64,000 nt of DNA from Lingula anatina (Eukaryota > Animalia > Brachiopoda). Under the pieces are notes generated by a model. That model saw only the letters and a list, made by a program, of their open reading frames with translations. It did not search any database and had not been told where the DNA came from. The DNA is taken from the NCBI GenBank assembly GCA_051362555.1, contig CM120640.1, forward strand, positions 26,584,225 through 26,648,224, given 5' to 3'. Of the stretch, positions 12,881 to 63,639 are shown piece after piece; within the stretch, counting starts at the first letter, position 1, and each line of letters starts with the position of its first letter. The position numbers and the translations under genes were made by a program.

Positions 12881-13689
12881 GTTTTACTTGTGTTATAGTC
12901 AAGAACATATACATTTATACACAATGTACCCCTTCGTTAACATTAAGAGGTGTTGGGTTCTTAAATCTACAGTGGGATTTATTTAAGTAAGATAGTTACT
13001 TCTCTAATTTGACTCAGGAAAGTCTAGGTAACGGCTCGAGTTATTCCTGGGGCTCCATAACTTAAAAGCATCGCGTATTGCGAACGGCGATATCACATAG
13101 AGGCTACAGTGTATTACATGGGGCGAGCATGGTCAAGTAATGGAATCGAGACGCTTGCGCTCGGTCGCAATGCGCGCTGCTTTCGAGTTACGGGGCCCGG
13201 GAGAGCAAAGTAACGCAGCACCACAGCTTTGTATCCAAAAACCAAAATTCAACTCATTACCTGGACATCGGCTAGTTTTATGGAAGAAATTGGAGTGACA
13301 GAAATAGTGACGAGATTGTAAAAGTTTAAGTGAGAGGCGAAAGAGGATAATTTCTACGAGCATACATGCGAGTCCATTTAAATTTATTTGCAAGTCTCGC
13401 TTTTTTTTAGCGATCTGTACACGACCACTTTTTTTTTTTACAAAAAAAAAAAAAAAAAAAGAAAAGAAAATTATAGAATATTTTTTATTCAACTATTATG
13501 TACAATTTTGAATATTTACAGTTGATTTAAAAAGGACTAATAATCAGTAATGAACTACGTTAACGCAATGAATTAATACATAGCAGTATTATCAAAAGTT
13601 CTAAGATTTTCCATCGTCTTCATCTAGCGTCGGAACGCACACAGTCCGATAATGCAGGTCTTGTGGTCGGAAACTGGTACCAGATGCTC

Positions 13690-13800
13690 TCGGGCCGTGG
13701 GGAAAACCCGTCTTAACCCTTCGTGGGGAATGCCGGGAAAGTGCCCACGCCCGGATAATTCGGTACTTATAACATGACGAAATCGGTTTCTATTGGCACG
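13690..13800 (-). promoter_or_regulatory. Putative TATA promoter with a cluster of NF-kB-like sites
   Basis: Minus strand: CCAAT (13796-13792), TTTCGTCAT, TATAAGTA (from 13771) and a CA initiator ~29 nt downstream (13742). Plus strand: GGGGAAAACCC (13699-13709), GGGGAATGCC (13725-13734), GGGAAAGTGCCC (13735-13746). CpG-rich island from about 13070 to 13850. Confidence 0.45.
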
Positions 13801-16378
13801 GCGCTGCGTACAGTTCAAGAATCGTCCCGTTTTAGACAGCATTGTGTGACGGAATAACCTTTGCCTTGACTAACTATTCTCTATATATACTATACACGAG
13901 GTGAAGCCTAAAAACTTATTAAAGTAATTCTTACAGAAAAAGGCACTGAAGCCAATAAAAAACTAACAAGAGACATAACAATTAAACAGAATCATTTTGA
14001 CTTTATCTTGGAGAATTAAAATCATAAATAAAGTTAATCATTTTACAACTGCAAGCATCTTTCAAAACTTTATAATAGTTCTCTTTATGATAAAATGCAA
14101 ACAGATTCAAGTAATATAATTATAACTCGGGAATATCAATGATTTCAACTAAACTTTGATATATAATTCGACTTAAAATACCAGGTTTCTAAAATGTAAC
14201 TTTGCACTGAAATCGCAACTACCTGCATGATACAAGTACAATATAAAGCAAGCTTGCTTCAAAATATTTCGAATCTCACATTACACTGTATGACCTCCCA
14301 TGTAAATTTCAATCTGAATTTTTTTTGATCCGGAGAAAAGGTGCATATGTGATGAAGTGGATGTATTTGTCAACTATAACACTTGAGAAAATCTGAATAT
14401 TAGTAATGTGATCTCTATCTTGAGAGATGACAGCATCTCTCAAGAAGAGCAGACTGTACAAAAAATATAATGAAATATTTTCTCACACGTAAAATATTTC
14501 ATTACAGATTTTGCACAATCTATCAATGTAAAATCTCTTCATGTAAAAGCGTTTACATGAAGTCAGATTTTACAAAGATGTGAGGGTTTGTTAGTAAGGT
14601 TAGTGTGCAGGTTAAGACCTTTTCAAATGTCATACTGACAAACAACTCCACATCATCAAAAGCACAAATTTGAAAAATGACCATCTCAGATTGAAACAAA
14701 ACACAGACGACCACGAGTGGTGGGAATGTTTTTGTGAGCAAAAAACTATCTGCATTCAGAATGTGGATAAAGCAACTCTATATTCAAATTTATTAATATA
14801 ATAATTATAGCAACTGTAGAGGTAGACTTTTCCTACAGAAGCACACATCTTATTCAATTGATCTTGTATGGAATGAAGAATTATCTTGAACCTCAGTTTT
14901 CTCTTCTGTTATTGAAATAAAATGGTTCACTGCATAAGGCATAAAATACAAATGAAATTTGATGCAATTTCACCTGACATGTTTGTAATCCATGAACCCC
15001 AAATATTCTCAGTATCCAAAAGACTGATACATTATTAGACTGTATTCCCACTACATTCAGTACTGTATATTGCCTTCATTACCATTCCGCATTCTTTATA
15101 TTTGTTTGCAGAACAAGCCGTGTCCTTCAACACCAAAACTCGTGGGATGTCCGAGCATCCATGAAAGTGTCCACAGGGCTCCTTGCTAACGCTGTACAGT
15201 GTTCAACATCTTGGACATTTGGTCTTGGGTCGACGTTATCTGACATCATGCAGGCGTAATTATTGGAAAACTCCCAATTCGTAGCCTACAAATGAAATCC
15301 AACTTTTACTCAAAAGTATGAAAAGCTATATCGAAAGCTTGCAGTACCTGCAACAAAGAAAGTATATCACTGGTATTTACACACCGTTAACATTAATGAA
15401 AAGTTTGGTTCTTAAAATGATCAGAGCGTTATTTCCAAATGTACAGTGAAATATGCTTCCTTTATTGAAATATATATATTAACTTTTTAGAGTAAGTAGA
15501 CAGCAGTCTTCAAAAAATAAATTATTTCAAACATTTGACAAAAAAGTAAGAAAAGATGTTGCTACATTGAATATTGTAATGTTAGCCTACATGTTAAATT
15601 GTTGACTGTCTGTGCTACTTCTAATTCTACTGTTTGTTTACATAGGATATAGGACTGTCAATAATAAGAAACGCCATAATACACCAATAATAATACTTAA
15701 AAAATTCAGAACCACTTTTCTTAAGTTGTTGATCCCCAATAACTTACAAAGTTATCTGTATAAAGATCCCTCAATCCTGAAGAAGTGTTTCATCTGGAGG
15801 TTTGGTAGTTGCAATCTTCATTTTTAGAATCCACCACTTTTGGTAGCCTGCAAATTTAAATTATTACTTCAAAATGTAATAAAAGTCAACCATTTGTATA
15901 TGAAATGTGTTTTTAAAGTTTCAGCAGTTTGATGGGAAATAAATATCAAAAGCACTTTTGTCACAAACTTGGAAAAAACATTCAAGCGAAATATTTTGAC
16001 ATGCCACTGGCGACCTTCAGACTTAATATCACAATGGGGTATTGCATAAATTAGTTTTAACGAAGGAAAAGGAACACTAACAGCATTCAAACGACTCTAC
16101 TCAAAGACAAGTTTAAGTAAAGCCTGATCAATCTAGATCCAGCGGGAGGAGTGTACTAGTATTCCATCAAGTGTTTAATTTGTGAAGGATTTATATGGGA
16201 GAGAAAGAGAAAGTTGAACGTTAGAGTTAAAGAACACGGGAAGGAATAAGAAAGGGTACCCGAAGAGGGAAAAATTCACAATATAGAGAGATGGAAATAA
16301 ATACTCACTTCTACGGTGGCCTTTTATTACCACAACCACAGCACTGGAGGTGGGGGTGGTAGCTGCTAGTATACAATT

Positions 16379-16812
16379 TCTGGACCAGTGACAACGTCCC
16401 GGAGTCACATTGGTGGCGGTGGGTGTTGGGGGCGGTAGCTCCAAGTAATCTGGACCAGTAACCACGCCCTGGAGTCACATTGGTGGTGGTGGGTGGTGGG
16501 GGCGGTAGCTCCAAGTAATCTGGACCACTGACCACGCCTCGGAGTCACATTGTTGGTGGTGGGTGGTGGGGGCGGTAGCTCCAAGTAATCTGGACCACTG
16601 ACCACGCCTCGGAGTCACATTGTTGGTGGTGGGTGGTGGGGGCGGTAGCTCCAAGTAATCTGGACCAGTGACCACGCCTCGGAGTCACATTGGTGGTGGT
16701 GGGAGCGGTAGCTCCAAGTAATCTGGACCAGTGACCACGCCCCGGAGTCACATTGGTGGTGGTGGGTGGTGGGGGCGGTAGCTCCAAGTAATCTGGACCA
16801 TTGACAACGTCC
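16379..16812. repeat. 70-bp G-rich tandem repeat, 6 units (one 63 bp)
   Basis: tctggacca recurs at 16379, 16449, 16519, 16589, 16659, 16722 and 16792. Confidence 0.95.
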
Positions 16813-18264
16813 TGCAGAATATTGAGACTGTTGAGGATCTGAAAGTTGACGAATGGCATGTCAAAATATTTTGTATGAATGATAAGGTTTTTCCACATCT
16901 GTGACAAATTAAAAGAGCTTTTTACCTGTGAAAAATGAGCACTGAATTTGCTAGAGTAAATTGTAAATGGAAAACAAATGCCTGCACCGAGTGACAGGTC
17001 CCAAACATTCTTAAAACAATTGTCTAAGACCTTGCACAAAATGCTCAGTTTGTTGGAGTTGCACTGATAAAAGATTTGTATTATCTATACAATGAATGAC
17101 AATCTAGTTAATTTACCCTTATCCTGTCCCACAACTTACCTTGAATGCTCTCTAATCAACTATTGAAGGGCTCTTGAAACACTATATGATATAGCTGACA
17201 TGGCTTTCTCCATTTTAGCCTTGTTAACCTTGTTAAAATGGACCGTCATCAGGACAGGCGCTCGCCAATGCTATCTGCCTCAACTACAAAATAAAAAAAA
17301 TTATAAGTCAAAAGTTTCCCTCTTTACTTCTCCCACCCAAATCCAATCTACTAACCATAAATATCTTAATCCTAGGAGTGGGTCATGGGTAAAAGACATT
17401 GCCTTCTGAATTTGAGCTGTCAAATTAACGTGGCTAACGGTTTTTAGTTTTTCAAGGTATGAAAAGTCACTTAAGTGTTTTGTTTTCCCCAAAAAAAACA
17501 TGAGTGATATGTACCTTTTAAGGGTTTCCATCTCTGTGAAACGCCATATGCTTCTGATGCTCCCCCATGCAGCCCCCTAACATACAGACCATGGCAGGAC
17601 TCAACCATGCACCAAGGATTGAATGTGACCCTCTTCTTGCACCTCTTTCAAAAAAGCGGGACTTTATCAGGAATTGCCCTAATTGAGTTCTGTAAATAGA
17701 GAGGAAAATTTGATTAGTTTTCAAAAATTGTATATCAAAAGCAGTCTGCAGACAGAAAAATTGTTGGAATCGGTAGATTTCCAGAATGTGTCAATTTGGT
17801 GACATGGCTGTTAGATTTTTTCTATAAGTATGAAAAAGAGCTTTTGATTCATTTTAAATGTAACTGTTACATCATGATTCGAGAAAAATGTCAAGGTCTT
17901 GTTAATACAAATATTAATGCAATCCAGTCTAGTCCTATTGAACTTTGTATTCGAACCAGTGAATCAAGATTCAGACATCTATATCTAGTTTTTAGGAAAG
18001 AAGGTGGACTGAATGGCCAGTAGGGTGAAAAGTTTATGGCATAGACTGCTGCTGAAAAATTAATTTTAGTGTATTGTTCTCGCCAGTAACACGGGTTACC
18101 TTGCAGGTTTTTCCGCCTCAGTGAAACACCATATGCTTCAGACGCTTCTCCAATGCAGCCTCTTCAACAGACCGTGGCAGGACTCACTGGCACCAAGGAT
18201 TGAGGGATGTATCGGAAGTGTGCACGTGGCCCTCTTCTCCTTGCAGTTGCCATGAAACGTTGGA

Positions 18265-18642
18265 CAGGACTCGCTAGACGCTTCCTAGTGCAGCCACCTC
18301 GTAGACAGACCATGGCAGGACTCGCTGGACGCTTCCCCAGTGCAGCCACTTCATAGACGGACCATGGCAGGACTCGCTGGACGCTTCCCCAGTGCAGCCA
18401 CCTCGTAGACGGACCATGGCAGGACTCGCTGGACGCTACCCAAGTGCAGCCACCTCGCAGATAGACCATGGCAGGACTCGCTGGACGCTTCCCCAGTGCA
18501 GCCACCTCGCAGATAGACCATGGCACGACTCGCCGGACGCTTCCTTAATGCAGCCACCTCGTAGACAGGCCATGACAGGACTCGCTGGACGCTTCCCCAG
18601 TGCAGCCACATCAAAGAGACAGACCATGGCAGGACTCGCTGG
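18265..18642. repeat. 52-bp GC-rich tandem repeat, block A (7 units)
   Basis: caggactcgctggacgcttccccagtgcagccacctcgtagacagaccatgg units start at 18265, 18316, 18368, 18420, 18472, 18524 and 18576, partial at 18630. Confidence 0.95.
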
Positions 18643-18808
18643 CACCAAGGAATGGTCAAAGTAGCTTAAGTGTAGATTTGGGACGTCTCCTTGCAGTTGT
18701 GTTCTGTCAACAGAAAGAAAAATGAATTAATGACTTTTCATACTATGTCAGCACTCTGCAGTCAGGCTTACCTTTAAGTGGTTTCCATCTCATTGAAACA
18801 CCACATGA

Positions 18809-19237
18809 CAAGACTCGCTGGACGCTTCCCCAGTGCAGCCACCTCGTAGACAGACCATGGCAGGACTCGCTGGACGCTTCCCCAGTGCAGCTACCTCATA
18901 GCCAGACCATGACAGGACTCGCTGGACGCTTCCCCAGTGCAGCCACCTCGTAGACAGACCATGGCAAGACTCGCTGGACGCTTCCCCAGTGCAGCCACTT
19001 CGTAGACAGACCATGACAGGACTCGCTGGACGCTTCCCCAGTGCAGCCACTTCGTAGACAGACCGTGGCAAGACTCGCTGGACGCTTCATAAGTGCAGCC
19101 ACCTCGTAGACAGACCATGTCAGGACTCGCTGGACGCTTCCCCGGTGCAGCCACCTCGTAGACAGACCATGACAGGACTCGCTGGACGCTTCCCCGGTGC
19201 AGCCACCTCGTAGACAGACCACGGCAGGACTCGCTGG
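18809..19237. repeat. 52-bp GC-rich tandem repeat, block B (8 units)
   Basis: Same unit starting at 18809, 18861, 18913, 18965, 19017, 19069, 19121 and 19173, partial at 19225. Confidence 0.95.
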
Positions 19238-19297
19238 CTCCAAGGGATGGTCGAAGTAGCTTAAGTGTAGATGTGGGGTGTCTCCTTGCAGTTGTGT

Positions 19298-21130
19298 CCT
19301 GTAAACAGAAATAAAAACGAGATTAGATTTCTTTCATTTCTCAAAGCCCCCTTCCAAAAAGAAAAAAGATTACATACCTTAAGGAGTGTAGTCAAAGTCC
19401 CACAGGTGGCGCCCATCATCTTCTATGTCCTGTAAACAGAAATAAAAACGAGATTAGATTTCTTTCATTTCTCAAACTTCCCTTCCAAAAAGAAAAAAAG
19501 ATTACATACCTTAAGGAGTGTAGTCGAAGTCCCACAGGTGGCGCCCATCATCTTCTATGTCCTGTAAACAGAAATAAAAACGAGATTAGATTTCTTTCAT
19601 TTCTCAAACCTCCCTTCCAAAAAGAAAAAAAGATTACATACCTTAAGGAGTGTAGTCGAAGTCCCACAGGTGGCGCCCATCATCTTCTATGTCCTGTAAA
19701 CAAAAAATAAAAACGAGATTAGATTTCTTTCATTTCTCAAACTTCCCTTCCAAAAAGAAAAAAAGATTACATACCTTAAGGAGTGTAGTCGAAGTCCCAC
19801 AGGTGGCGCCCATCATCTTCTATGTCCTGTAAACAGAAATAAAAACGAGATTAGATTTCTTTCATTTCTCAAACTCCCCTTCCAAAAAGAAAAAAAGATT
19901 ACATACCTTAAGGAGTGTAGTCGAAGTCCCACAGGTGGCGCCCATCATCTTCTATGTCCTGTAAACAAAAAATAAAAACGAGATTAGATTTCTTTCATTT
20001 CTCAAACCCCCCTTCCAAAAAGAAAAAAGATTACATACCTTAAGGAGTGTAGTCGAAGTCCCACAGGTGGCGCCCATCATCTATGTCCTGTAAACAGAAA
20101 TAAAAACGAGATTAGATTTCTTTCATTTCTCAAACTTCCCTTCCAAAAAGAAAAAAAGATTACATACCTTAAGGAGTGTAGTCGAAGTCCCACAGGTGGC
20201 GCCCATCATCTTCTATGTCCTGTAAACAGAAATAAAAACGAGATTAGATTTCTTTCATTTCTCAAACTCCCCTTCCAAAAAGAAAAAAAGATTACATACC
20301 TTAAGGAGTGTAGTCGAAGTCCCACAGGTGGCGCCCATCATCTTCTATGTCCTGTAAACAAAAAATAAAAACGAGATTAGATTTCTTTCATTTCTCAAAC
20401 CCCCCTTCCAAAAAGAAAAAAGATTACATACCTTAAGGAGTGTAGTCGAAGTCCCACAGGTGGCGCCCATCATCTTCTATGTCCTGTAAACAGAAATAAA
20501 AACGAGATTAGATTTCTTTCATTTCTCAAACTCCCCTTCCAAAAAGAAAAAAAGATTACATACCTTAAGGAGTGTAGTCGAAGTCCCACAGGTGGCGCCC
20601 ATCATCTTCTATGTCCTGTAAACAGAAATAAAAACGAGATTAGATTTCTTTCACTTCTCAAACTCCCCTTCCAAAAAGAAAAAAAGATTACATACCTTAA
20701 GGAGTGTAGTCGAAGTCCCACAGGTGGCGCCCATCATCTTTTATGTCCTGTAAACAGAAATAAAAACGAGATTAGATTTCTTTCACTTCTCAAACTCCCC
20801 TTCCAAAAAGAAAAAAAGATTACATACCTTAAAGAGTGTAGTCGAAGTCCCACAGGTGGCGCCCATCATCTTCTATGTCCTGTAAACAGAAATAAAAACG
20901 AGATTAGATTTCTTTCATTTCTCAAACCCCCCTTCCAAAAAGAAAAAAAATTACATACCTTAAGGAGTGTAGTCGAAGTCCCACAGGTGGCGCCCATCAT
21001 CTTCCATATCCTGTAAACAGAAATAAAAACGAGATTAGATTTCTTTCATTTCTCAAACCCCCCTTCCAAAAAGAAAAAAAAGATTACATACCTTAAGGAG
21101 TGTAGTCGAAGTCCCACGGGTGGCGCCCAC
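19298..21130 (-). repeat. 132-bp tandem repeat, 14 units, each a ~80-nt GT-AG intron plus a 52-nt exon
   Basis: cctgtaaac recurs at 19298, 19429, 19561, 19693, 19826, 19958, 20087, 20219, 20351, 20483, 20615, 20747, 20879 and 21010. The minus strand reads AAG|GTATGT...CTAAT..pyrimidine tract..TTTACAG|GAC. Confidence 0.93.
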
Positions 21131-21486
21131 CAGTTTGCAGTCTGCTTCCTGGACCTGTAATAAAAAGAAACCTGGAAAGCATGGGAATATGCAATGACAC
21201 TACGACTCCAGCCCACGACAGCAAAAAGGTGAAGTATCCTGCGAAGATGACCGAGCGACGATTCCTCGTGGGGAGAAGCGAAGATTTTAGCTGGCCAGCT
21301 AAGAGAAACGCCGAATCCACCGTCTAGACGTCTGCGTGTGCAGGGAACAATATGTCGAAGAGCGATGCGTTGACGTAGGATGAGTAGAAGATTGGGAGAA
21401 ATGGGAGTCGACTCCCGTGTCCTTTGTTCTTGATACAGGGCGCAGCACATGGCATCCGTCCTGTTGCTCTAGATCTGTCCGCTGTT

Positions 21487-21570
21487 GAGTGAACGCACTT
21501 TTAAAATTTTGCGCTTTTATACCTTTGTTGACGTATAGTCACATGATGGCGTTCTTGTTGTCACCAATGG
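21487..21570 (-). promoter_or_regulatory. TATA/Inr core promoter
   Basis: TATAAAAG at 21521-21514 lies exactly 31 nt upstream of the A in TTCACTC (21490). Upstream are a TGACG half-CRE (~21529), an E-box GTCACATGA (21538-21546) and CCAAT (21564-21568). Confidence 0.7.
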
Positions 21571-22080
21571 TCAACTTGTTCAAAGGGGATGGCCTTTGAT
21601 AGTGATGTGCAAAGTTGGTAATAATATCTTATCAACATATACATTTTCTTTTATATTTTATATTTTGATTATTCTGCCTGTCAGTTTGTTTATAATAAGA
21701 GTAATAAGTTCTAAGCAATGTCTGTGAAATGTGCAGGCAAATTTGATGAAAATTTCTGAACAATATACCTTCTCCCTAAAATTTTTATAGGTACGATGTC
21801 CGTTAAGCTGGTAGCTGTGAACTTCTCGCAGGCTACTTTAGTGTGCGTGTATTTGAACACTGATCCAAAATGTGGATAATGTAATTTGGCGTAGGGTGAC
21901 TGCATTTTTGAGGCAGCCTGAGGGAGTATGGTTGTTCTGATTGTAGTGAATTGTAGAGAGACAATTGGAAGTACACTGGACTTAGCATGTTCAGTCACCC
22001 AAGTACTCTGAAACACATTTTGTAATCAGCTGACTTGTTATTCTGAAAAATGAAAAAACAAATTATATTGATTTACAAAA

Positions 22081-22401
22081 CTGGAAGATAGAAGCAGTGG
22101 ATCATATTACTTATGCCAGGCAGAAGAAACGACTGAATGTATATTTTTATATTCAAAACGTCTACTGATTTAGGTAATAATTAATAGCCTGGAAGATAGC
22201 AGCAGTGGATCATATTACTAATGCAAGGCAGAAGAAACGAGTGAATGTATATTTTTATATTCAAAACGTCTACTGATTTAGGTAATAATTAATAGCCTGG
22301 AAGATAGCAGCAGTGGATCATATTACTAATGCAAGGCAGAAGAAACGAGTGAATGTATATGTCTATATTCAAAACGTCTACTGATTTAGGTAATAATTAA
22401 C
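22081..22401. repeat. 108-bp tandem repeat, 3 units
   Basis: ctggaagatag..gcagtggatcatattac recurs at 22081, 22189 and 22297. Confidence 0.92.
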
Positions 22402-22931
22402 AACTGACGTCTCCCTTCATGGCGTCGGGTTATCAGTACTCCCACACCAGTAACATGAGTTATGAGTTAAGCAGAAACAGAAAAAGATTTTTTATAAAGA
22501 TAATGCAAGTATATGTGTAGGCCCATTTATCTTTTTTTATATTACTAAACGTAAGAATTGTTTGTCCAAGTGAAACTTTACTTACATCAGCCTAGCAACT
22601 AAATCTGACGTTTTAACGTCTCCGAAAATAACTAGAATTTTTTGAATAACGCAATAATGCGGCCACCTTCGAGGTGTCGCCCGGTTTTTAAAAATTGAAA
22701 AAAGAAACTTTTCGGGGCGTCTTTTGTCGCGGGTCATTATTTTCAGTTGTTTGATGTTTTTTGGTAATATTTTAGCCATTGATAGAATCTATAATTCAGT
22801 TACATCCACGATTAGCTAGACGAAATGGTGACAGGGAAAAGTCAAATTTTTTAAACGGCAAAAACTGCATTCTCTTAGAAAGCAATTAGCAAACATTCAT
22901 TACCAGGCACTGTGAAAAATTCAACCGAAGT

Positions 22932-23156
22932 TGAAGACAAAATGTGTCAAAAATAAACGTGCATGTCGTAATACCTATTTAAAGCAGTATAATTTTTGTT
23001 AGTATTAAAAACGTGAGTCGGAAAATGTTTGCATAATTACATAAAAAACTAGAATTATCTCTTTATGTGACCACAGTTTACTCATGTGCCTTACATCATT
23101 CCCTTAAACCCTTTCCCAATATCGATTTCAGATATTTTTGACACATTTTGTCTTCA
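22932..23156. repeat. Perfect 24-bp inverted repeat with ~177-bp spacer
   Basis: tgaagacaaaatgtgtcaaaaata (22932-22955) and tatttttgacacattttgtcttca (23133-23156). Confidence 0.85.
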
Positions 23157-25525
23157 TCTGAATCACGTGAACGTTATCAAGTGTCATAAGGCATACATTA
23201 CGAAAATATTTAGGTCTTGGAACGTGATTTGATGACTTTTTTAAATGCATATATATACAATTATAAATTTATAATTAAGTTATTTAATATCAAATTATAA
23301 GTTCTGACCGAGTTTTAAAATTTATTTTAGGAGGGGTAAAAAAACCCAACCCCATCTAATATATATTGGATACATCCGTAGGCCTTTGTCCTTAGAACTA
23401 GGCGTACAAAATGTGTCTTCTAGCTAAAGTTATTATTATGGTGTATGTGTAATTAAAAAAAAAACTACGTAAGAGTGACAATAGGTCATGTGTTTCGAAT
23501 GCACCCCCACTCTCCGATCAGACATTACTTATGTATAATTCACAGTCCATCTTCGTTGTAGTTTGTGACTTAACGTCATTTCTTAGTGAAGCGGTGTTGT
23601 CCTCAATTTACCTTAAATGTCCAAATTACTAAGAAGAAACCACTTGCAAGAATTATAAGGCTTTTTATACTGCTAGGTCTATAGACGTGATACACACGAT
23701 ATTTTGCAACCCCACAAAATCTGTTTCTTAAAATTTTGGTTCCACCACAAAGCTTAGCACTATCATTCTTTTTTGCTTTATTGATATATTTTCAGTACAT
23801 AAATGACCATTGTCTGTTGCCCAATTTTGCACAAAATTAAGATAATCCCCAAAACCTCATTAATTGTGTTTCCTCCATCCCAAAAAATATTAAAAATTTC
23901 TCCTCATAATTTAGTAGTGCACTGGCATCTACACAGTACATAAATGTATCATTATCATAACATCTTGTTCTTACTGATAACATAATGATCTTAATTCCAT
24001 AACAATTCTAAAATGTTAATAACAATGAAAATTCAAAGTAGATGGCAAGATTCTTATTGTGCTGATAAAGATAAAATATGTAAATTCAATACTGATTAGG
24101 TACTGTATACTGGCTCATTGAAAAAAGGGAACCGTTTCACAAAAAAATTAAGCTTAGACTGCTAAATCTGGATAGCCAACTATACAAAGTCAACTTTGCG
24201 ATATTGTCTTACAACTACAATTTTTTAAGAATGATTGGTCCACAGTTGATGAGTAGAATATACATAAATGGGCTACTGACACCATTGCAAGTAAAAGACT
24301 TGCCAAGACAATCAAAATGTAAATCAAAGGAAAGTGAAAAGAAAGTAAAAAGACTGGAAAAAATGAGGCAAAATTGATAACTTGGTTAATGAGCGAACAA
24401 TACTCTAGTTTTGATTAAATCAGAACTTTTCTTGCACCTATTTTTATTTTTGCCATTTTGTAAGTGAAAAAAGGGGAATAGGGGATTGGTGTAGTGAAAG
24501 CCCAACCTTAACCTTTGGATGCTATTCTCATTAAACATATGCATAAAAGACAAAATTTAGACCACAAATAGATTCATGCAATCTACCAACCTTTTTTACA
24601 GTGAGTCATTGCAACTTATCAGTTATTTCTGGCCTAGGCTATCTGTAAGATTCTTACAACTGTGAAGTGCAACTTAGCCAGCTAAGTCTTTATAGGCTCA
24701 GATTTTAGACTACAAACCAACTTCAAACATTTAGTAAAGCAAGTGCAAGGAATAGTTAGTTTGAAGGCTCTGCCTCCCCATAGAGTGAGAACAAACACAG
24801 TCACACTGTATGATACATTACAGAAAACATTGGTTAAAAATATACTCTGGAATTTTACATTTTCACTAGTATAGAATCAATTTGATTTCTAAAACTGACT
24901 TATTATAAAAATACTCCTGTCAATTTAAAACTTTTTCATAAAGCATATCTGAAATACACTGATAAAATATTATTAAAAATATTAAAATTTGATATTCACA
25001 GATAAAATAGGCTCAAGTCAAAATGATTAAGACAATTATTGAAGCATTATTCAAACCCCAATTTTGATTATTTTCATACAATTAGTGATTCACAAGTTTT
25101 TTAACAGAGTTGTACCTAATCTGACTACATGATATCTATCAAAATCTCTCTAAAATCAAGTGACAAAAAAATGCCCACAGTTTCAAGCACCATAAAATAT
25201 GGCTTAAGTAAGTAATATCCTCAATTGTTTCATAATAAACGTCATGTCACTTGAATGTACCATTCTCCAGAAAAAAAAGATGAACTTGCAAGGTTTGATA
25301 AGTCTGCGTTTACAGGTAGATGTCATAGTTTAATATACATGAGGCAGCTTTATATCGTGGTCAACAATATTATATTATATTATATCAGTTTCTCTAGCCT
25401 CCATGTCTTATTCGTCATAATATTTTGATTTTCAAATTCAGGGTCCCCTAGTAAAAGATCTTGCATTTCCTCTTGATCACAGAAGAATCTGAGTTGAGAA
25501 TACAGTTGAGAATACAGAGTTAAAA

Positions 25526-25631
25526 TTAGGCCTCTCCTCTCCACTCGGGGTCCTCTTGCAACTGAACCTCGCTGACATCCATGGTTACATCTTGAAAAAT
25601 AATATATTCCCAAAAAAGTTTAAATGGTGCA

Positions 25632-25669
<38 letters not shown>

Positions 25670-26629
25670 TAAAATCAATAAATCTTGGACACATTACTTG
25701 TCGTACGTCTGAATAACACGACAGACAAGAAGAAAATAGTTGCTCTTGAAAATGGACTTTAAGTAATGAAAATGCAAGATGACAGCTAGTAGATAGTACA
25801 TGTGCATGCAATTTATTTGAAATTCTGACTTTTCAGTCCTAATGATTTAGATTATTTATAGCCAATAATCTGAGAAAATAAAATATTCAACAGAGAAATT
25901 GGTCCTGCTCGTACCTGACTGCTTAATATTCACTGCAACAAACGTCTCTACGACATCGTCGAGCTGATCAATAGGGTCATCATAATCACATCCTGTGTAC
26001 GCTTTTTTCTCGAGGCAGTACTTAAGGAAACTACACCAAAGAGAAGTTGAAAATAAAGAAAGAATTGCCTACTTTCTTTTGTCTTTCTGTATGGACTTTC
26101 ATTCACAATAAAAGAATTGCCTAGTAGACACTATTTTGTCTGTCAGTTTGGAGTTTAATTTACATGTTTTTTAACTTTCCTTTTTTTTTCTATTTTTTTT
26201 TTTTATTATTTAACAGTCTGTCTGATCTAAAACATGATAGCTTTCTCTTTTTAATCTTTCTATCCTCTTTGTTTTTTTTTTTTTTTTTGTCAGTCTGTCT
26301 GAACAAACATTAAAAATTTAATTTATGAACTTTATTAAATCCTTAACATTTCTTTTTTTGTTGGTTTGTCTGTCTGTCTGAACAAGAGTTCTTAGAAACA
26401 ATGAGATTAAATAAAGATAAAATAAAGGAAAAAAATTTTGAACCTAACATGGCTGATTTGTGTTTGGTTTGAAAAAGTCTTATAATTTGATTGAACTTTT
26501 TTTGCTTACTGATCAAATAAATTAAAATAATTCACTTCACCTGTTCCAATGTTCATCTTGCAAAAGAAGAAACGGATTCCCTACAACAATCAATAGGGCC
26601 TTTGCTCTTGTGATCGACACATTAAACCT
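25526..26629 (-). CDS. MOV10: MOV10-type SF1 (UPF1-like) RNA helicase, last three coding exons only
   Basis: Exons 26629-26541 (RFNVSITRAKALLIVVGNPFLLLQDEHWN, helicase motif VI), 26030-25915 (SFLKYCLEKKAYTGCDYDD...) and 25590-25526 (DVTMDVSEVQLQEDPEWRGEA*). Phases are compatible; the YC....YTGC and terminal PEWR motifs match the MOV10 C-terminus. Confidence 0.85.
25633..25668. repeat. (TAA)n microsatellite
   Basis: Directly visible, in the last MOV10 intron. Confidence 0.9.
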
Positions 26630-29600
26630 CTGAAAAAAAAATTAATCCCACATGTAACTGTATGTGCGGGTGAACACTGAAGACAGTATAGTCTGAGACT
26701 AACTGTTCATATCTCTTCTGTGAATTCCGCATCACATGGCATAGTCTCCGCAGTGCCATAGTGGAAAGAAATGGTGATGAAAATAGTATGGACTCTAGCT
26801 GTTTAAATAACCTTACATTTCAAAATGTACAAAGTCTTATGAATTATGTGTTCACGCATATACACATGCCACAGCACAATCATGGTAATGACACTATCTT
26901 TTCAATGGGCAAAAATTATCAAACTTTCAAATGTATACCTTTATAAACACATTAAGTATATAGTATTAGTGGTACTCTTACTGCACAGATTAGAACTATA
27001 GAGTAGCTTACTTTTTTATTCTGTTGTGACCATCCAATAGGAATTGGGTAGGAGTATTAAAATTTTAAAAATTAATGGCCTAAAAAATACCGCATCTGTA
27101 AAATTCACAATTTCCCCCCCACTGAAAAAAATCAAGTTATTACCATATGCTGAGGTGGCACTAGCAATTTTTTCTAAAGCCAAATTACTACTTTTTCATC
27201 ACTTTTTTCTCCAAAATGGTTTAAATTTGACTAAAATAAGTCAAATCAACCCTATTTTGTTTAGCCAATTGAAGTCAGTTTTAGCATATAATCAACTAAC
27301 AATATTTTTAAGAAGCTGAAAATGTCAAAACAACACTTTTACATATCTAATTTGTTCCATATTGAGACTGTTAACATGCCTAAGAATTAAATCTGAAGAA
27401 ACGCCACTTATATGCAAAAAGGGCTAATAACTTCATCAAAACTTAACTGATCAAGCTTATTTTCAAACTTGATCTGTATATTAGTCAGACTGATCACTCC
27501 TGTAAGTTTCAAGACAAAAGGCTGATTGGTTTTCCTTAAAATGTGTTATTAGTGTTGCATATATGCTGAATAATGGAAAAAAACAGCATAACTTTAAATT
27601 TGTAAAAATAGTCCAATCAAGCCAATTTTCGAACTTGACCTGCGTATTATGAATATTCATCAGTTCTGTAAGTTTCAAGCCAAAAGGTAAAATGGTTTTC
27701 CACTTATCGTGTTATCAGTGCTGCATATATGCTGAGAAAATGCAGAAAATGGTTCATTTTGTTAATTTTGATGCAATAATAAATCATGCCTACAATAGCA
27801 CTGTCAATCAACACTGAATTTTAATCATGCACAACAGGTGACATCGTCAATAACAGGAGCGGATCCAGAGATATTTTCTGACAGTATTCCAAATTATCTT
27901 TGTTTATCCATCCTACATTTTTGAGGGTCTTCCAACAGAAAAAAACAGATACCCATCAATATGAACTTTAAAATATGAAAGACCCAGAAGACGGCCTCAA
28001 TCCACCCCTGCAATAAGATTACAGTTTCAGGACCAAATTCACATAATGAAAATCCCAATATTTGAATAATGATGACAATGCATAAAATAATATTACATAA
28101 TGTTTAAAGACATAAATGCAACTGTTTATGTGGAAATACAGAGAATGTGAAGAGCTTCAGGTGGATGGGAGCTGAAAATGCCAGTGTTTGAAAAATAAAT
28201 TAAAAAGAAAACACAACAAAAATATCCCATTAAAGCTGCTATTCAAACTTTTAATCTTGCTGTAATAACATGATATGAATAACCCCAATGTGTTTGAGGA
28301 TAATAAGGCACTGTTATTCAAATATTTTTTTTTATTTTGTTAACTTATTTGCAATATTAAACAACATTTACCTGCATAATTATCACAGATTCCTAATTAT
28401 GTGACACAGTTAAGAGAGCCTAACCTATGGGACTTTACTGGGAAATCTCAACGTGTTTTATGTAATCTTATTTAATGGGCACTTGGAAATTAATTAGGCA
28501 AATGATTTTATAGCTCTGAATTTAGCTTGTGATACCCCAAGGGACAATTACCACCATCCATAAACAGTAGCCCCATATAGCACTCTATAGAGCTGCATTG
28601 CTTCCAGAACAGAAAACAATCACTGATTTTCCAACACAAACTGCACGTCAGTCTTACAAAACTTTTCAGTAAGTTTGAGTATCATAAGTAACATGGTTTT
28701 TCCTTAATGGTCATTCCGGCAGCCATTTCCAAAATAGGGTTTTCTTCAACTTTTATGCAATATAACATAATGACCATCAATTTTTAATAATAAAATAAAA
28801 GTATCATGGATATACAGAAAATGTGACATGGAAAGGTCTTCAAGGCCATGGAAGTTCAGAGTCACACTTTCAAAATGCCAAAATGTATACAAGAGATAAC
28901 TGTATTAAATTGATTTTCTTCCATTTTCAACACCTTTTATTCATATAACAAAGTAATCAATTTACTGTCATTTTTAAATGAACAACTGAGAAAATTGGTG
29001 ACATAGGAAAAATATCAATAGAACAATTTTAAATGTCCAGTTTGCTCCATTCTGAGATTCTGAACATGGTGAATGATTGAATCTGACAAACTGTAAAGAT
29101 ATGAGTTTATTATTATTTCCATTTTTTGACACTTTATTACACAATTACAGGTTTACCATCTTTTTTATATAATCAACTAACAATATTGTTAAGATGCAGA
29201 AAATGTCAAAAGAACACCTTTACATATCTAATTAGTTCACATATGAGATTGTTAACATGCCTAAGAATTAAATCAAAGGAAAAAACACTTATATACAAAC
29301 AAGGCAGCAAAGCTGTCAAATGTACAGACAAAAAACAGAAAATAAAGACGCAAAAAATAGGTCATTTTGTCAACTTTGATGCAATAATAAACAAGGCAGC
29401 AAAGCTGTCAAATGTACAGACAAAAAGCAGACAATAACAATGCACAAAACAGGCTACTGTCAATTCTGATGCAAAAGTACATTATGCTTAACTGCAAATT
29501 CAACATCAAATTTCAATTATGCTCAACAGGTAATACCAATGTAAGTGAAATGTGTAACAAGCGTAAGGCTTCAGGCCCATGGGAGTTTAAGTTCACACTT

Positions 29601-57075: not shown

Positions 57076-57352
57076 CTTGCTGATTTTAAGGAAATGCTTT
57101 GCAATGTTTTGAAACAACAAGTGCACAGCCTTCTCATATTTTTGCGCCCTCAATTTACGCATGCGTTGGCATTATATGGGTCATTCAAGATGAGCCCGCG
57201 CACGTTTGCTTTGCAAGTTTTGGAGCAGCAGGAAGATGGGTAACGTTGAAATGTAGTGTTATTGTTGTGTGCAGATGTGATGAAAGTCTAAGGCAACTGT
57301 TGATGCACAACTGTCTAAATTATGTCAGCTATCATACGAAACAGAAAAGAAA
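57076..57352. promoter_or_regulatory. Short bidirectional promoter between the coiled-coil gene and DHX34
   Basis: Divergent ATGs 277 bp apart. Contains TTTGAA (CHR-like, 57108-57113), TTTGCGCC (E2F-like, ~57141) and palindromic ACGCATGCGT (NRF1-like, 57157-57166). Confidence 0.65.
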
Positions 57353-60300
57353 ATGCCGAGGACAGAAAATGATCGAGATGGAGAAAAACCAAAAAGGGAC
57401 GAGAGACACAGATCACCAACAGACTCACATCATAGTAGACACAGACACGATAGAAACAAAAAGAAGCACAAACACAAACATGGACACAGAAGGAGAAGCA
57501 GGTCTTCAAGTAGGAGTGGTAAAGACAGGGAGGAGAGAAAGGCCCACGGATCAAGAGAAAGTTTTTCTACTTCACCCCAAAGAAGAAAACAAGAAGACAG
57601 ACATGATTCTAAAGACAGATATGATTCCTCTCCAAATCTGTATACAGACAGGCACAAGAAAAGAAATCAGTATGGGAAGGATGAGAAAGTTGTTGAAAAT
57701 TCAACTACATATATGAGCAACAAACATGAAACAGAAGCTACATCCTCTGTAAGACAGGGTGATCATTCACAAGAAGTGGTTGAGAGCTCTTCAGAAAGTG
57801 AAAAGGAATTTGATGATTTTGACTTCGAATGTGAAAAATCAACTCTTGACAAAATGTTCTTTAGAGAAGATGACTTAATAAAAAGGTTTGTCCTTAAGAA
57901 TTAAGCAATGAATGGATATAAAACACCTAAATTGACTTTGAATTGATAAGGAACATAACAAAGGTATTAAAATTGCTGCTACTAGTAAATGTTTGTCACA
58001 GCTGCATGTAAATTTTAAGCAGTCATATTTATAATAATTGAGTTTCAATCTGTAGGGGCTCACAAGATTATAATGACTTCTGGGCATTCCTGAAGAAGTT
58101 CAAGGCTTTTAACAGGAAGAAAGCAATGCAGCAAAAAGGTATCAAATGCTGCCACATTTACAGATTTAGAATCGACATATATTAATATTGACAAATTTGA
58201 CATATTGTTACCAATTTTTTTTTTTTTGGGGGGGGGGGGTATTTAGCTGGTTAAAATAGGTAAATGCATCTAAATTGATGGATAAGAATGATTCACATTA
58301 TAAAATCAGATATGTACCCAAAAGAAAAAAGTTTAAAGTTGCAAGAGTGTATATATGAAAGCAATTTGATTTTTTTTCTTATCATATTCTTTTGTTTGTT
58401 TTATTGTTAAGTTTTCATATTTGCATTTCAAGATACTTTTTTTCCAGGTAGCAGATCTAAATCAAATTTGAAAGAGAGCAAGTTAGGTATACCAATGAAG
58501 TATGACAAAAGATACAAGATCAATCTCTCTGTGGCAACTAAGGACATAGAAGATATGTTGAAGTATGGAGGAAGTAAGCACAAAGGTAAAAACCCATTTG
58601 AAATCCTTACATTTTGTCTAAGATCAACAGTAACAACCCTAGATTTCTGCAAATGAGATTAGTTAATTTTGACAATAGCAATTCCGCAAGAAAAGATGCA
58701 TTTTCAGGTATCCTTTTATTCCAGAAAAATCTCAATTGAACAAGGAGAGGATAGCTGAATTTAGAAGCATCTTGTTGCATTACTTTGATTTTTGCCAGAA
58801 GCAGAAGGTAATAGAAAACAGACTATTTAATAAAAAAAGAACATTTATACATTGCATTAGTCATTCTTATATTTTAACTTTTATTATTGGTTTGACTGCC
58901 ACTTTAATAGAGTTTGATATAAAGCTAGATCTAGAGACTTAACTAATTTCTTGTTTATTTTTGGCAAAGGTCCAACAGGTTTTCCCCTACTTAGCAAGTA
59001 TTTGATATTTTCCTGTCCATTGTAAGTTTCACTGTAATACCAAAAGGCTATCTGGGTTCTCTAAATAGATCATTTAAGGCACATTGTCTGTCGCACACCA
59101 ATAAAAATTTGAAATACTTCTCAGAATTTCCTCATTATTTTTCCAGTTTTCAAAATTAATAAAGATAAAGAAGGACCAGCAAAATCTGCCCATCTATCAG
59201 TATAAGGAAAAGATAATTGAAACACTGAAAGAGTACCAGGTAATTGTGGTGGCTGGAGACACGGGCTGTGGAAAGTCAACACAGGTATGTACTTAATAAC
59301 AGGTGTCCCTAAATGTCTGTGTTAACAATTTAAGGTCCATGTCTAATTTCTGCTTTCTTGCTGTCATTTTCTTTTACTAAACTGCTGATCTTTGGGTCCA
59401 ATATGGTATTCATGACTCAGTTTTAAGTTTTCAAATCAAGGTGTGTTATTTGTTGAAAATATATAAATTTTCTGTTGTTATTCTAGGTTCCCCAGTACTT
59501 ATTACAGGCAGGCTTCACTAACATTGCCTGTACCCAACCCAGGAGAATTGCCTGTATTTCTCTCAGTAAAAGAGTGGGTTATGAAACACTGAATGAATAT
59601 GGATCAGAAGTTGCCTATCAGGTACGTAGAGGGACATGTTAATAAAACTGGTTAACTTGGTTAAATCTGCATATTTTATGAAAGCTTTCAATTCCCGACT
59701 AAATCAAATTGTGTTATCTATACTGTTGCAAGTTACTTTATTGTATGGGAAATAGACAGATATTACCTTTCTTTATAGGTTAGATTTGAAAGATCCAGAA
59801 CAAGAGCCACCAGAATAATTTTCCTGACAGAAGGTACCTTTGAATTCCCTTACTTTAGTATATTGGGTTCTCATTGTATAATGGTTAAATTTTAGAATAA
59901 AGGGATAGATGAATCTGAGAGAGAAAGAGAGAGACAGATGTACACGTTTTATCTGTTAAGTAACAAGATAATTACAGAAACTGATGGTTTTGTTTGAATA
60001 TATAATGAAAAAAGATGCAACCTTAACCTGCAAAATATAATTGATTTCTTATGAATACACAATATTTGTTGTTGAAGGTCTATTACTAAGGCAGATGACA
60101 ACAGACCCTTTCCTTAAACAGTACAATGTCATTGTAATAGATGAGGTAGGCTGAATAAAATTAGATAATAGATAGAATTATAATATATACCCTACATTTT
60201 ATTACTTATATTGCAACCATTTTTACTTCTATAGATTTGAGATTGGGAGCAATTGTCCTTTTTCTTACTCTTTTCTTTGGGTTACAAGGTCAGAAAGTAT

Positions 60301-63300
60301 TAGGGAAGAAGTTAAATGATGAACTGGTTCTGAATTGAAGCAGGGCACTGGAGGTCAATACATATGAAGCTGTTTATGTAGAGATCATTAAAAATGAAAT
60401 ATAGAATATTGTGGATGCATAAAGATTTTTTGTCATCTTTACCTAAAGAAAAGCATTCTATCTTTTGATTTGGATCAGTCAAAAGTAATGTACATTATTG
60501 TGATATGAGTGCATTTTCCAATTTGTGCTTGCGTCATTTTATATCTCATGTTTTAATTCCATATTTGGTGATTTTCTATGAACACGTTTCCTGCAATATA
60601 TACATCTTAGTCATGTCTGTACTTCAGGTTCATGAGCGTCACATCTACACTGACTTTCTGCTTGGTGTTGTCAAGTGTCTACTTCAGCATCGTGATGATA
60701 TCAAAGTGGTCCTCATGTCAGCCACCATCAACATTGACATGTTCAGTGGATACTTTGATCACGCCCCAGTCATCAAGGTACAGCCCAAAACTTAATAATT
60801 ATTAAAATTGGAAATATTGATTTAAATAAATAGAAGGACATAGACTAATATTCTGATATTTTGAGAATATGCTTTTGACAAATCTAGATATATAGAATTT
60901 ATTTTACAAGTATTTAAGAAATCAACCACCTACATAATGGAATGATTAAGTTAGTATTTCTTTAGGTGCCAGGGCGTCTGTACCCTATACAGTTGCAGTA
61001 TCACCCCATTGACCAAGCAGATAAAGAAGAAAAAAAGGGAAAAATTGATCCATCACCTTACCTAAAGATAATGCAAATGATAAATCACAAAGTAAGTATT
61101 TAGTCCTGCTTACATGACCATTATGATTATATTAATATTTATTTTAGAACAAAATGGTCTGAGCTTTAGAGTATTTTTAATTTATAAAAAATATTAATAG
61201 AATATGTAGATGTTGCTCCATTATCTGATGCTGTTGGTGTAACATTGTTTTCAAAGCTGCTTACATCATATGACAAGGGTGTATTTACTATTAGATTAAA
61301 TAGACTCAAAAATATGGAAATAAGTGTGTTTGACTATGGCATTGTAGTTTGTGAAAGCATCTCATAACCTTAATTTACAAACAACTAATTATGCACTATT
61401 TGGTCCCTGTTTTAGTATCCAGACTCTGAGCGCGGTGATCTTCTGATATTCCTCAGTGGCATGGCAGAGATAATGACGTTGGTGGAGGCAGCTAACATGT
61501 TTGCTCAGAAATCCAAGAGATGGATTGTTCTGCCTCTTCACAGTGCTCTCTCCATCTCAGAACAGGACAAGGTGTGTATGGCCCGGTGTGTAGTGAAATA
61601 TAAAAAGGGAAGTCAAATGAAAAGATACAGTCACTTGATAGATTCACGATATCTCAGATATAAAAGTGTTCATTTTTTTTTAAATCAAAGTTTTAGCCAT
61701 TTTTTGTAATAGATTGAGGTGAGATGCCCTTTATGCCTACTGTGTTATATTCATCTTGAATTGCATTGAAATATGTTTCTAAATAAAAATTATGATATAG
61801 TGTATCTTTTTTTTTTTCAGGTTTTTGATTACCCTCCTGAGGGCATTAGAAAGTGTATTATCTCAACAAATATTGCAGAAACATCAGTCACCATTGATGG
61901 TGTCAGATTTATTGTGGACTCAGGAAAGGTATGTTATTATCTTACAATCAGCATATAGGTCAGGATAGTAGATTGTTCTGTATATACATTTAGGTTCATT
62001 TCACTGAATCATGAAAATTGAAGCGCTTGTTATCTTCCTTAGGTCAAAGAGATGAGCTATGATCCTAAGTATAAGATGCGTAAATTGCAAGAATTCTGGA
62101 TCAGTAGAGCTAGTGCTGAGCAAAGAAAAGGCAGAGCAGGTAGACTTAAATTATATATGTATTTGACCACAACATTCATACCTTATTAAACATTTTATTC
62201 AATATTGAAACTAAATGAGCTAAAGAAAATGAATGAACCAATTAAAGACTAATTTTCAAGGTGAATTATAAATGCATCTCTTTCAATTGAAATATATTTT
62301 TATTGTCATATGATTGAACAATTATCATCTCTTCTCACAGGAAGAACTGGGCCAGGTGTGTGTTACCGTTTGTATGATGAGAGTGACTATGATGCCTTCC
62401 AGGAGTATGCCACTCCTGAGATACAGAGGGTACCATTGGATACATTGATCCTTCAGATGGTCTCTATGGGGCTACCTGATGCTAGAAAGTAAGTTCATAA
62501 CATCTGTCTATATTTTTGGTTAATATACTTGAATCTGTGTGAAACTAGAGATGAATTGAAGTAAGAGCAGCATATACTAGTAGGTTGAAGTTTATATGAA
62601 TATCTTTTGTAACTTCAGGTTTCCATTCATTGAACCACCATCTGACAGCAGCATAGAAAATTCTGTGGCTTTTCTGAAGGAACAGGTCAGCTCATTTTCC
62701 CATATCCTATCATTTTTTAAATTTGTACTTGCATATTAGTGTGAACATAATCAAAGTAGATATTAAAGATTTTTTTAATTAAATTGCTTTCACAAGTATC
62801 ACTATTTTTGTGATAGGTTATGTATCTGTTCACAGGGGGCTCTTACAGAAGATGAGAAACTGACCCCTATTGGTGAGATGCTTGCCCAGTTACCCGTGGA
62901 TGTAGTCATTGGGAAAATGCTCATCCTTGGTTCCATATTTCAAGTAAGAGATTTTATAGCAGTGGTAATTTTGAGTAATAATAATAATATTATTTAATTA
63001 ACATGTTCATTTTTTTGTTGTTGTTGTATAACAGAAAAAAATATATAACCAGTCATATTTTTACAGTGTGACAAATTTAAGACACATATTATGTTTTTCT
63101 TTCAGATGATTGACCCTGTGTTGTCCATTGCTGCTGCCCTCAGCGTCCAGTCTCCTTTCACCAGCCGAGCTCACACTGACCATGATGCCGTTGTAAGCTG
63201 ATAAATGAACAAATAAATATGTTTATATAACTCCCTGGTCTTTGTACCTCAGATATTTTAAAGTAATTCTAGAAAGGTGTGTTTCAGCCAGGGCTGCTTA

Positions 63301-63573: not shown

Positions 63574-63639
63574 GTGAGACATTTTCTTACGGAAGAAATT
63601 AAAATTGTGCAGCATGCATATTCTATATAACTAAATATC

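What the first reader, a model, noticed from the sequence alone, without database searches (positions are those of the whole stretch)
19298..21154. Minisatellite whose unit is a complete exon-intron cassette (13 near-identical 52-nt microexons)
Seen: each 132-bp unit on the minus strand has an AAG|GTATGT donor, a CTAAT branch-like motif, a pyrimidine tract and a TTTACAG| acceptor around a 52-nt exon (gacatagaagatgatgggcgccacctgtgggacttcgactacactccttaag). All 14 introns keep intact splice sites. The consensus exon has a stop in every frame (frame 0 reads DIEDDGRHLWDFDYTP*), and 52 is not a multiple of 3. Inference: this is not a tandem coding exon array. It could be a lncRNA carrying many exon junctions, an NMD-destined transcript, a source of variable-length isoforms or circRNAs, or a neutral recent amplification.
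Basis: partly seen in the sequence, partly recalled or inferred. Interest (0 to 1): 0.8.

Follow-up and report, generated by a model that had tools for sequence, protein, structure and literature searches.

The report
Repeat-built noncoding RNA keeping its introns
In a lamp shell (Lingula), a 132-base unit of one tiny exon plus one tiny intron is repeated 14 times inside a likely noncoding RNA; in two of three informative samples these repeated introns are mostly left in while a neighbouring ordinary intron is cut out, most likely as a side effect of a recent repeat expansion.

Summary
The anatomy is confirmed: 14 donors, 14 introns of 79-81 nt and 13 internal exons (12 of 52 nt, one of 49 nt). 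The consensus exon has a stop in every frame. The genome is a Lingula brachiopod. RNA reads show the array is transcribed on the minus strand, inside a multi-exon RNA with no long ORF. The introns are real but often kept: spliced joints were 4 of 40 (X1), 7 of 26 (X3) and 8 of 10 (X7). A downstream 410-nt intron was removed in essentially all reads (29 and 21 joints, intron depth 0-2). The intact splice sites are no sign of selection: the units differ by only about 1%. The rest of the RNA is built from a related, older exon-intron module, also found at three annotated Lingula loci and nowhere else. Best reading: a lineage-specific, repeat-built lncRNA whose young exon-intron minisatellite is spliced inefficiently and variably. 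It resembles FIRRE (repeated exons) and amphioxus 'mirages' (splice-site minisatellites) but belongs to neither. Function is not shown. Interest 0.38.

The parts
19299..21091 (-). Exon-intron minisatellite: 14 introns (79-81 nt) and 13 microexons (12 x 52 nt, 1 x 49 nt at 20087-20039)
   Evidence: Transcribed on the minus strand, with both spliced and unspliced joints.
21092..21640 (-). 5' exon. Its last 41 nt are a copy of the microexon 3' part; the start is diffuse, about 21500-21640.
   Evidence: continuous depth 9-19 over 21149-21452 in X1, fading to 1.5 at 21605-21642; no sharp start listed. for the 41-nt match. Start position inferred.
18772..19298 (-). Exon B (527 nt) with an exonic 52-nt tandem repeat unrelated to the microexon; stops in all three frames (2/1/4)
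   Evidence: Its head is seen joined to the unspliced last intron (loose ends). Its donor is predicted only.
18704..18771 (-). 68-nt intron B-C, likely of the same family as the array intron
   Evidence: Predicted GT-AG; 3' end 85% like the array intron over 27 nt, E=0.012. Splicing not tested.
18100..18703 (-). Exon C (604 nt), a paralogue of B; stops 4/4/4
   Evidence: Donor at 18099 shown by reads.
17690..18099 (-). 410-nt intron, fully spliced: the internal control
   Evidence: CT..AC joint in 29 (X1) and 21 (X3) reads, intron depth 0-2; 0 joints in X7 and X8 (6 and 8 reads laid).
17515..17689 (-). Exon D (175 nt), an older copy of the B/C module
   Evidence: 80% to the tail of C; depth 21-36.
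17284..17514 (-). 231-nt intron, partly retained
   Evidence: spliced 5 (X1) and 10 (X3) reads; intron depth 3-8 and 9-16.
17140..17283 (-). Exon E (144 nt), sometimes skipped
   Evidence: joined to exon F in 19 (X1) and 16 (X3) loose-end reads; skipped in 4 X3 reads.
16309..16838 (-). Exon F with a 70-nt tandem repeat (6.3 copies)
   Evidence: Acceptor shown; repeat; donor predicted.
14790..15847 (-). Predicted last exons G (15847-15748) and H (15285 to an AATAAA at 14794)
   Evidence: GT-AG and AATAAA prediction only; no reads laid here.

Best explanation
The array is a tandem repeat of one 52-nt exon plus one 80-nt intron inside a spliced, minus-strand, likely noncoding RNA of a Lingula brachiopod, and its introns are removed in only some molecules (4 of 40, 7 of 26 and 8 of 10 joints in three samples), most likely as a by-product of a recent, unselected expansion. 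How it likely works: unequal crossing-over or slippage multiplied one copy of an older intron+exon module from which exons B, C and D are also built (inferred from sequence likeness). The ordinary long introns are spliced (shown for two). The array introns are slow, likely because tiny exons and tiny introns crowd the spliceosomes and a hairpin is predicted to cover the pyrimidine tract (inferred, post hoc). So the poly(A) pool holds many array-retaining molecules, predicted to be nuclear. Any form that is exported and translated would stop early, upstream of several junctions, and would be an NMD target (inferred from general rules, not tested). No function of the RNA is shown.
For: Strand and expression: X1 depth 135-140 against 3.5-3.8 on the other strand over 20997-21072, so this is RNA and not genomic DNA. 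Retention: the joint counts above. Intron depth of about 140 is roughly 14 copies times the 9-19 depth of the unique 5' part. Ten X1 loose-end reads cross an array-type acceptor unspliced into a B-type head (3 of the window's type, 7 of a variant). Contrast with the 410-nt intron: 29 and 21 spliced joints, depth 0-2; Fisher P=2e-15 (X1) and 7e-6 (X3). Noncoding: the longest AUG ORF is 153 aa fully spliced and 134 aa with the array retained, and exons B-H have stops in every frame. Frame-changing indels occur in reads: 7 nt at 21341 in 6 of 16, 1 nt at 21387 in 5 of 12, 2 nt at 17156 in 20 of 21 and 17 of 17. The exonic 52-nt repeats show no 156-nt (lag 3) similarity. Youth and no selection: 1.2% substitutions per site, 5 distinct in exons and 5 in introns, P=0.53. 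The array is real: unit-specific variants of the assembly recur in other individuals' reads, for example the variant of 2 of 14 introns in 19 of 132 X1 and 6 of 80 X3 reads (one search place 21049). Family: three NCBI L. anatina ORFs share the B/C/D module, and one reads through a 69-nt segment that scores like the array intron (50.9 against 59 control windows, best 37.4).
Against: X7 shows mostly spliced joints (8 of 10; P=1e-4 against X1+X3), so retention is not fixed and may be regulated; X7 is unstranded and richer in variant-type reads (7 of 27 at 20994). The joint counts are biased both ways: a spliced read spans 2-3 junctions but counts once, and many unspliced reads lie contiguously and are not counted. 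Some intron reads come from other alleles or paralogues (56 of 220 X1 reads are only 90-95% alike). The fast removal of spliced forms by NMD would also raise the unspliced share. Keeping 0 or 1 microexon gives a 253- or 272-aa ORF, and NCBI annotates three related loci as coding. The link between the array and the downstream exons on one molecule is inferred from overlap and strand, not from long reads. Exons G-H are untested. The array intron does not fold better than shuffles (z -0.6), so the hairpin explanation is weak (n=4 introns).
Confidence: 0.68

Rival explanations
1. A functional detained-intron device: the retained strong donors and acceptors bind U1 and U2 and would tether the RNA to chromatin or soak up splicing factors, and splicing of the array would be a tissue or stage switch tuned by copy number.
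For: Selective retention beside fully spliced introns; a different spliced share between studies; 14 donors matching 7 of 9 positions of the U1-complementary consensus (consensus recalled); U1 motifs retain lncRNAs on chromatin in mammalian cells (10.1101/310433, abstract only); a related intron is read through in a paralogue's NCBI model.
Against: No sign of selection on the signals. Modest expression: 220 reads laid of 12.4 million in X1 and 2 of 9.5 million in X4. No localisation data. The sample differences may be allelic.
Confidence: 0.14
2. The array is spliced normally and the spliced RNA is destroyed by NMD, so the unspliced majority only reflects what survives in the nucleus.
For: The first AUGs open 43- and 153-aa ORFs that end far upstream of many junctions. 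X7 shows efficient splicing.
Against: The surviving molecules have the downstream long introns removed but not the array introns, so the array introns are still slower. Translation is not shown.
Confidence: 0.1
3. A rapidly evolving protein-coding gene or a recent pseudogene: skipping all microexons, or all but the first, makes a 253-272-aa protein, and the array acts as a poison cassette.
For: The ORF exists in the assembly. Three related NCBI models of 108-215 aa keep one frame across a shared junction.
Against: The ORF ends inside exon B, and reads carry frameshifts within it. The stop-free variant of the first microexon is nearly absent from reads (one marker 0 of 122, the other 4 of 124 in X1). 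No skip joint was listed. No Pfam family. Only 2 of 9 hits in 1.84 billion proteins exceed 40% identity, both Lingula singletons. One NCBI model translates an intron-like segment.
Confidence: 0.05
4. A host gene for a small RNA repeated in each intron (mirtron or snoRNA), or a spliced-leader donor array.
For: The same layout is known for repeated host genes (recalled: C19MC, SNHG14). The intron length is in the mirtron range.
Against: The intron does not pair end to end and folds like shuffles. Rfam gave only 2 chance-level hits in 13000-27000, neither in the array. No pile-up of read starts or ends and no diverse loose ends at the donor were listed. Small-RNA libraries were not available.
Confidence: 0.03

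Closest known systems
FIRRE/Firre lncRNA with RRD exons (PMC4820808, PMC9074896; passages read)
   Same: A lncRNA whose mature sequence is largely repeated exons (RRD in 7 of 13 human and 11 of 23 mouse exons; mouse copies 91-99% alike), with isoforms differing in repeat number.
   Different: RRDs are dispersed local repeats with a tested nuclear-retention role and hnRNPU binding. Here a complete 132-bp exon+intron is head to tail, the introns are often retained, and no homology to FIRRE or function is shown.
Amphioxus 'mirage' minisatellites (PMC3087553, PMC3902484; passages read)
   Same: A minisatellite whose unit carries splice signals, in a marine invertebrate, with divergent boundary copies.
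   Different: Mirages duplicate one exon-intron boundary inside coding genes and are reported not to disturb splicing. Here the unit holds both boundaries, the internal sites are used in some molecules, and the host is likely noncoding.
Tandem exon duplications in untranslated regions, e.g. Drosophila hydra and pip (PMC9013439; passages read)
   Same: Noncoding exons duplicated in tandem with their splice signals.
   Different: Those are mutually exclusive first or last exons; these are near-identical internal microexons.
Detained or retained introns in polyadenylated RNA (search listing only) and U1-dependent chromatin retention of lncRNAs (10.1101/310433, abstract)
   Same: Particular introns stay in poly(A) RNA while neighbours are removed.
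   Different: Nuclear location, regulation and U1 dependence were not tested here, and the retained intron is present 14 times.

Membership tests
Repeat-built multi-exon lncRNA (FIRRE-like architecture) | Transcribed, spliced RNA | tested here: met
   stranded reads and GT-AG joints.
Repeat-built multi-exon lncRNA (FIRRE-like architecture) | No conserved ORF | tested here: met
   (153 aa at most with 2 or more microexons; 253-272 aa only with 0-1); frameshifting indels in reads; no close homologues outside Lingula. Ribosome data lacking.
Repeat-built multi-exon lncRNA (FIRRE-like architecture) | The repeat coincides with exons of the mature RNA | tested here: met
   Exon-exon joints in 3 of 4 runs, though a minority in two of them.
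FIRRE orthologue | RRD sequence, mammalian X synteny, hnRNPU-dependent nuclear retention | not tested
   No comparison with FIRRE sequence was run. The host is a brachiopod, so orthology is not claimed.
Mirage minisatellite | Tandem repeat spanning an exon-intron boundary | tested here: met
   here both boundaries are in the unit.
Mirage minisatellite | Repeated sites are decoys that leave the regular mRNA unchanged | tested here: not met
   Internal sites are used and the repeat is part of the RNA.
Mirage minisatellite | Length variation between haplotypes | tested here: inconclusive
   Reads show other unit variants and another 5' border. Copy number cannot be read from short RNA reads.
Detained intron | Retained in poly(A) RNA while neighbouring introns are spliced | tested here: met
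   X1 and X3. Not met in X7.
Detained intron | Nuclear location and regulated removal | not testable with these tools
   No fractionation data; tissue labels are coded.
Mirtron or snoRNA host array | Intron folds into an end-to-end hairpin or matches a small RNA family | tested here: not met
   ends unpaired, z -0.6; no Rfam hit in the array.
Spliced-leader RNA gene array | Abundant reads starting at the exon and joined to many different mRNAs | tested here: not met
   no start pile-up listed, no diverse loose ends at the donor, depth follows the flanking exon.
Coding micro-exon array | Frame-preserving exons without stops | tested here: not met
NMD substrate | Translated stop upstream of junctions; UPF1-dependent decay | not testable with these tools
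   The geometry fits; translation and decay were not measured.

The most novel reading that the evidence does not exclude
A lncRNA that carries a copy-number-variable battery of 14 detained mini-introns. Each retained unit offers a U1 site and a U2/branch site, so the array would act as a multivalent splicing-factor tether or sponge, switched off by splicing in certain tissues or stages, in a Lingula-specific family of modular RNAs.
Probability: 0.12. Interest if true: 0.68.

Novelty: new variant of a known kind. Interest (0 to 1): 0.38.

Why it matters
It is a natural experiment on splicing: 14 near-identical short introns with good-looking signals are left in while a 410-nt neighbour is removed, which makes crowding, tract folding and copy number testable in a minigene. 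It also shows one route by which a minisatellite adds a dozen introns to a lncRNA at once, the step that the mirage papers propose for intron gain but did not see used. If the retention is regulated and functional, it would be a new design of nuclear RNA tether; present evidence does not show that.

Tried and rejected
No indexed RNA holder was listed ('no RNA holder listed'); 5 of the 9 same-label raw-read runs were laid, each read to 6-26%. X4 gave 2 reads and is uninformative; X7 and X8 gave 6 and 8 reads downstream. One joint row (21127 to 20998, 4 X3 reads) was left out of the counts because it is a register shift within an exon. Homology between the 52-nt microexon and the exonic 52-nt repeat is rejected (20 of 52 identical, reached by 1466 of 2000 shuffles), so the shared period looks coincidental. 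Microexon against module heads: 1 of 5 comparisons was significant (2 of 1000 shuffles), a weak hint only. The open plus-strand frame (211 aa) is broken by 1-nt indels, has no Pfam hit above cut-off, and the RNA is on the other strand. Mirtron, snoRNA and spliced-leader readings were rejected. A 20-nt exon motif gave 0 matches in metagenome and viral contigs. The protein atlas did not answer. The laminin exon search found nothing. One search used exon borders off by 1-2 nt; one search replaces it. Literature: ten searches listed no paper on this locus or on a Lingula lncRNA of this build; only open-access text was searched, and no supplements were read.

Full report
Observation. The array is as described. 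TRF gives 19295-21129, period 132, 13.9 copies. On the minus strand there are 14 AAG|GTATGT donors, 14 introns of 79-81 nt ending in TTTACAG with a CTAAT upstream, and 13 internal exons, 12 of 52 nt and one of 49 nt. The consensus exon has a stop in each frame. A strict intron pattern is found 14 times in the window, only here. The units differ from the consensus at 1.2% of sites, with 5 distinct substitutions in exons and 5 in introns (P=0.53). The chance that none hits a GT or AG is 0.52-0.74; for a wider 21-nt signal set it is 0.03 counting copies and 0.18 counting distinct changes. Intact signals therefore show youth, not selection.

Host. Most exons of the DHX34 gene at 57.3-63.6 kb align at 90-100% to the Lingula anatina protein, against mostly 60-94% to mollusc proteins, so the genome is a Lingula brachiopod, for which 1.6% heterozygosity is reported (PMC4595640, passages read). 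Laminin G exons lie at 0.9-2.5 kb. An AAA_12-like exon lies at 26629-26543 (E=2e-4, below cut-off); calling it MOV10-like is recalled. No whole genome was held.

Expression and splicing. Nine raw RNA runs of the same species label were listed, none indexed; five were laid. On a stretch holding one unit and the 5' flank, reads from all units pile up. In stranded run X1 depth over the intron is 135-140 for minus-strand RNA against 3.5-3.8 for the other strand. The unique flank 21149-21452 has depth 9-19 and fades out by 21640, so the RNA starts there and runs into the array. Exon-to-exon joints (back 52, plus rows whose in-between letters complete an exon) against 132-nt unspliced joints gave spliced shares of 4 of 40 in X1, 7 of 26 in X3 and 8 of 10 in X7; X4 had 2 reads. 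One row of 4 reads was dropped as a within-exon shift. The unspliced joints carry the intact donor. These counts are rough: spliced reads span several junctions and count once, and many unspliced reads are laid without a joint. On the downstream stretch the 410-nt intron 18099-17690 is removed in 29 (X1) and 21 (X3) reads with depth 0-2 inside it. The intron before exon F is also removed (19 and 16 loose-end reads). The 231-nt intron before exon E is partly kept (depth 3-16; 5 and 10 spliced reads). The contrast between array and 410-nt intron is strong (Fisher P=2e-15 and 7e-6), and so is that between X7 and the other two (P=1e-4). X7 is unstranded and richer in variant-type reads, so allele or paralogue may explain it as well as tissue.

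Not an artefact. Other individuals' reads show the 132-nt tandem joint and unit-specific variants of the assembly, for example the variant of 2 of 14 introns in 19 of 132 X1 reads and the 3-nt-shorter exon in 4 of 90 X3 reads. The exact copy number is not tested.

Coding potential. With corrected borders the longest AUG ORF is 153 aa when two or more microexons are kept and 134 aa with the array retained; exons B to H each have stops in all frames. With 0 or 1 microexon an ORF of 253 or 272 aa arises and ends inside exon B. Reads carry frame-changing indels in that ORF and further down, no skip joint was listed, and the exonic 52-nt repeats of B and C are no more alike at lag 3 than at lag 1. 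A search of 1.84 billion proteins with the exon B frame gave 9 hits; the two close ones are singleton 'uncharacterized' L. anatina models, LOC106164805 and LOC106173768, and a third is LOC106153014. None has a Pfam family above cut-off. They keep one frame across one shared junction, which is the best point for a coding past. But one of them translates straight through a 69-nt segment that scores like the array intron (50.9 against a best of 37.4 among 59 control windows). I read them as automatic ORF calls on a small Lingula-only family of modular RNAs.

Origin. B, C and D are copies of one exon module. The last 27-33 nt of the array intron resemble the acceptors of C (E=0.012) and, weakly, D (E=0.15). 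Reads from other alleles or loci join an array-type intron to a different B-type head and a B-type tail to a variant microexon. The array is thus likely a young local expansion of one derived copy of an older module, in an RNA that has also grown 52-nt and 70-nt exonic repeats. The equal 52-nt period of microexon and exonic repeat is not homology.

Why retained. The donors match the U1 consensus (recalled) at 7 of 9 positions, better than the efficiently used donor of C (6 of 9), and the tracts are as pyrimidine-rich, so weak signals are not the reason. Predicted openness of the tract is 0.28 for the array and 0.33 for the partly retained intron, against 0.69 and 0.71 for the two fully spliced ones. 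This is post hoc, n=4, and the intron folds no better than shuffles. Crowding of spliceosomes on 52-nt exons between 80-nt introns is the other likely cause (general knowledge, not tested). Loss of spliced forms by NMD could add to it.

Comparison. FIRRE has repeated exons with a tested nuclear-retention role (PMC4820808, PMC9074896, passages). Amphioxus mirages are splice-site minisatellites reported not to change the mRNA (PMC3087553, PMC3902484, passages). Tandem duplicated noncoding exons are common (PMC9013439, passages). U1 motifs hold lncRNAs on chromatin (10.1101/310433, abstract). This locus combines those features without meeting the defining tests of mirages, small-RNA hosts or spliced leaders. 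An earlier unchecked note of this scan describes a similar exon+intron noncoding array in a fungus, so the design is not unique. Ten literature searches found nothing on this locus (open-access text only; no supplements read).

Verdict. A real and transcribed exon-intron minisatellite in a likely noncoding, lineage-specific RNA, with partial and variable splicing. New variant of a known kind; best explanation 0.68; interest 0.38. The functional tether reading has probability 0.12 and would deserve 0.68.

Noticed in passing
window 21795-22080 and beyond, + strand: Plus-strand RNA rises to depth 14 (X1) and 8 (X3) at 22080 and is absent in X7 and X4, with a read-free gap at 21643-21794: a likely divergent promoter shared with the array RNA. 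A little minus-strand RNA (depth 1-4) also lies at 21795-22022.
   Followed up: no
window 22081-22400: A 108-bp repeat, 3 copies, 97% alike, in the path of the plus-strand RNA. It has GT and AG motifs that might make a second exon+intron unit on the plus strand (by eye, untested).
   Followed up: no
window 21012 (run X7, loose ends): Three reads join the exon variant that is last in the assembly's array to a microexon start: either another allele's order or a back-splice (circle). Not resolvable without DNA of the same animal.
   Followed up: partly
window 21174 (run X7, loose ends): Three reads show a different 5' border of the array (a consensus microexon directly after an acceptor), so array borders differ between alleles or loci.
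   Followed up: no
window 18265-19237 and 16379-16809: Exonic tandem repeats of 52 nt and 70 nt in the same RNA. The 52-nt consensus is stop-free in all three frames, giving spurious 120-150-aa ORFs like those annotated at related Lingula loci.
   Followed up: yes
window 17156 and 17515-17523: All or nearly all reads of X1 and X3 carry a 2-nt insertion in exon E and an 8-nt longer end of exon D relative to the assembly: allele difference or assembly error.
   Followed up: partly
window 26500-57000: Introns of the long minus-strand gene are filled with about 160-bp tandem repeats next to ACGGCG runs, likely a dispersed element.
   Followed up: no
window 57284-63600: DHX34 gene, exons mostly 90-100% identical to L. 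anatina XP_013379582/XP_013398262. The accession of one module-family model (XP_013398288) is close to the latter; whether it is the same locus could not be settled.
   Followed up: partly
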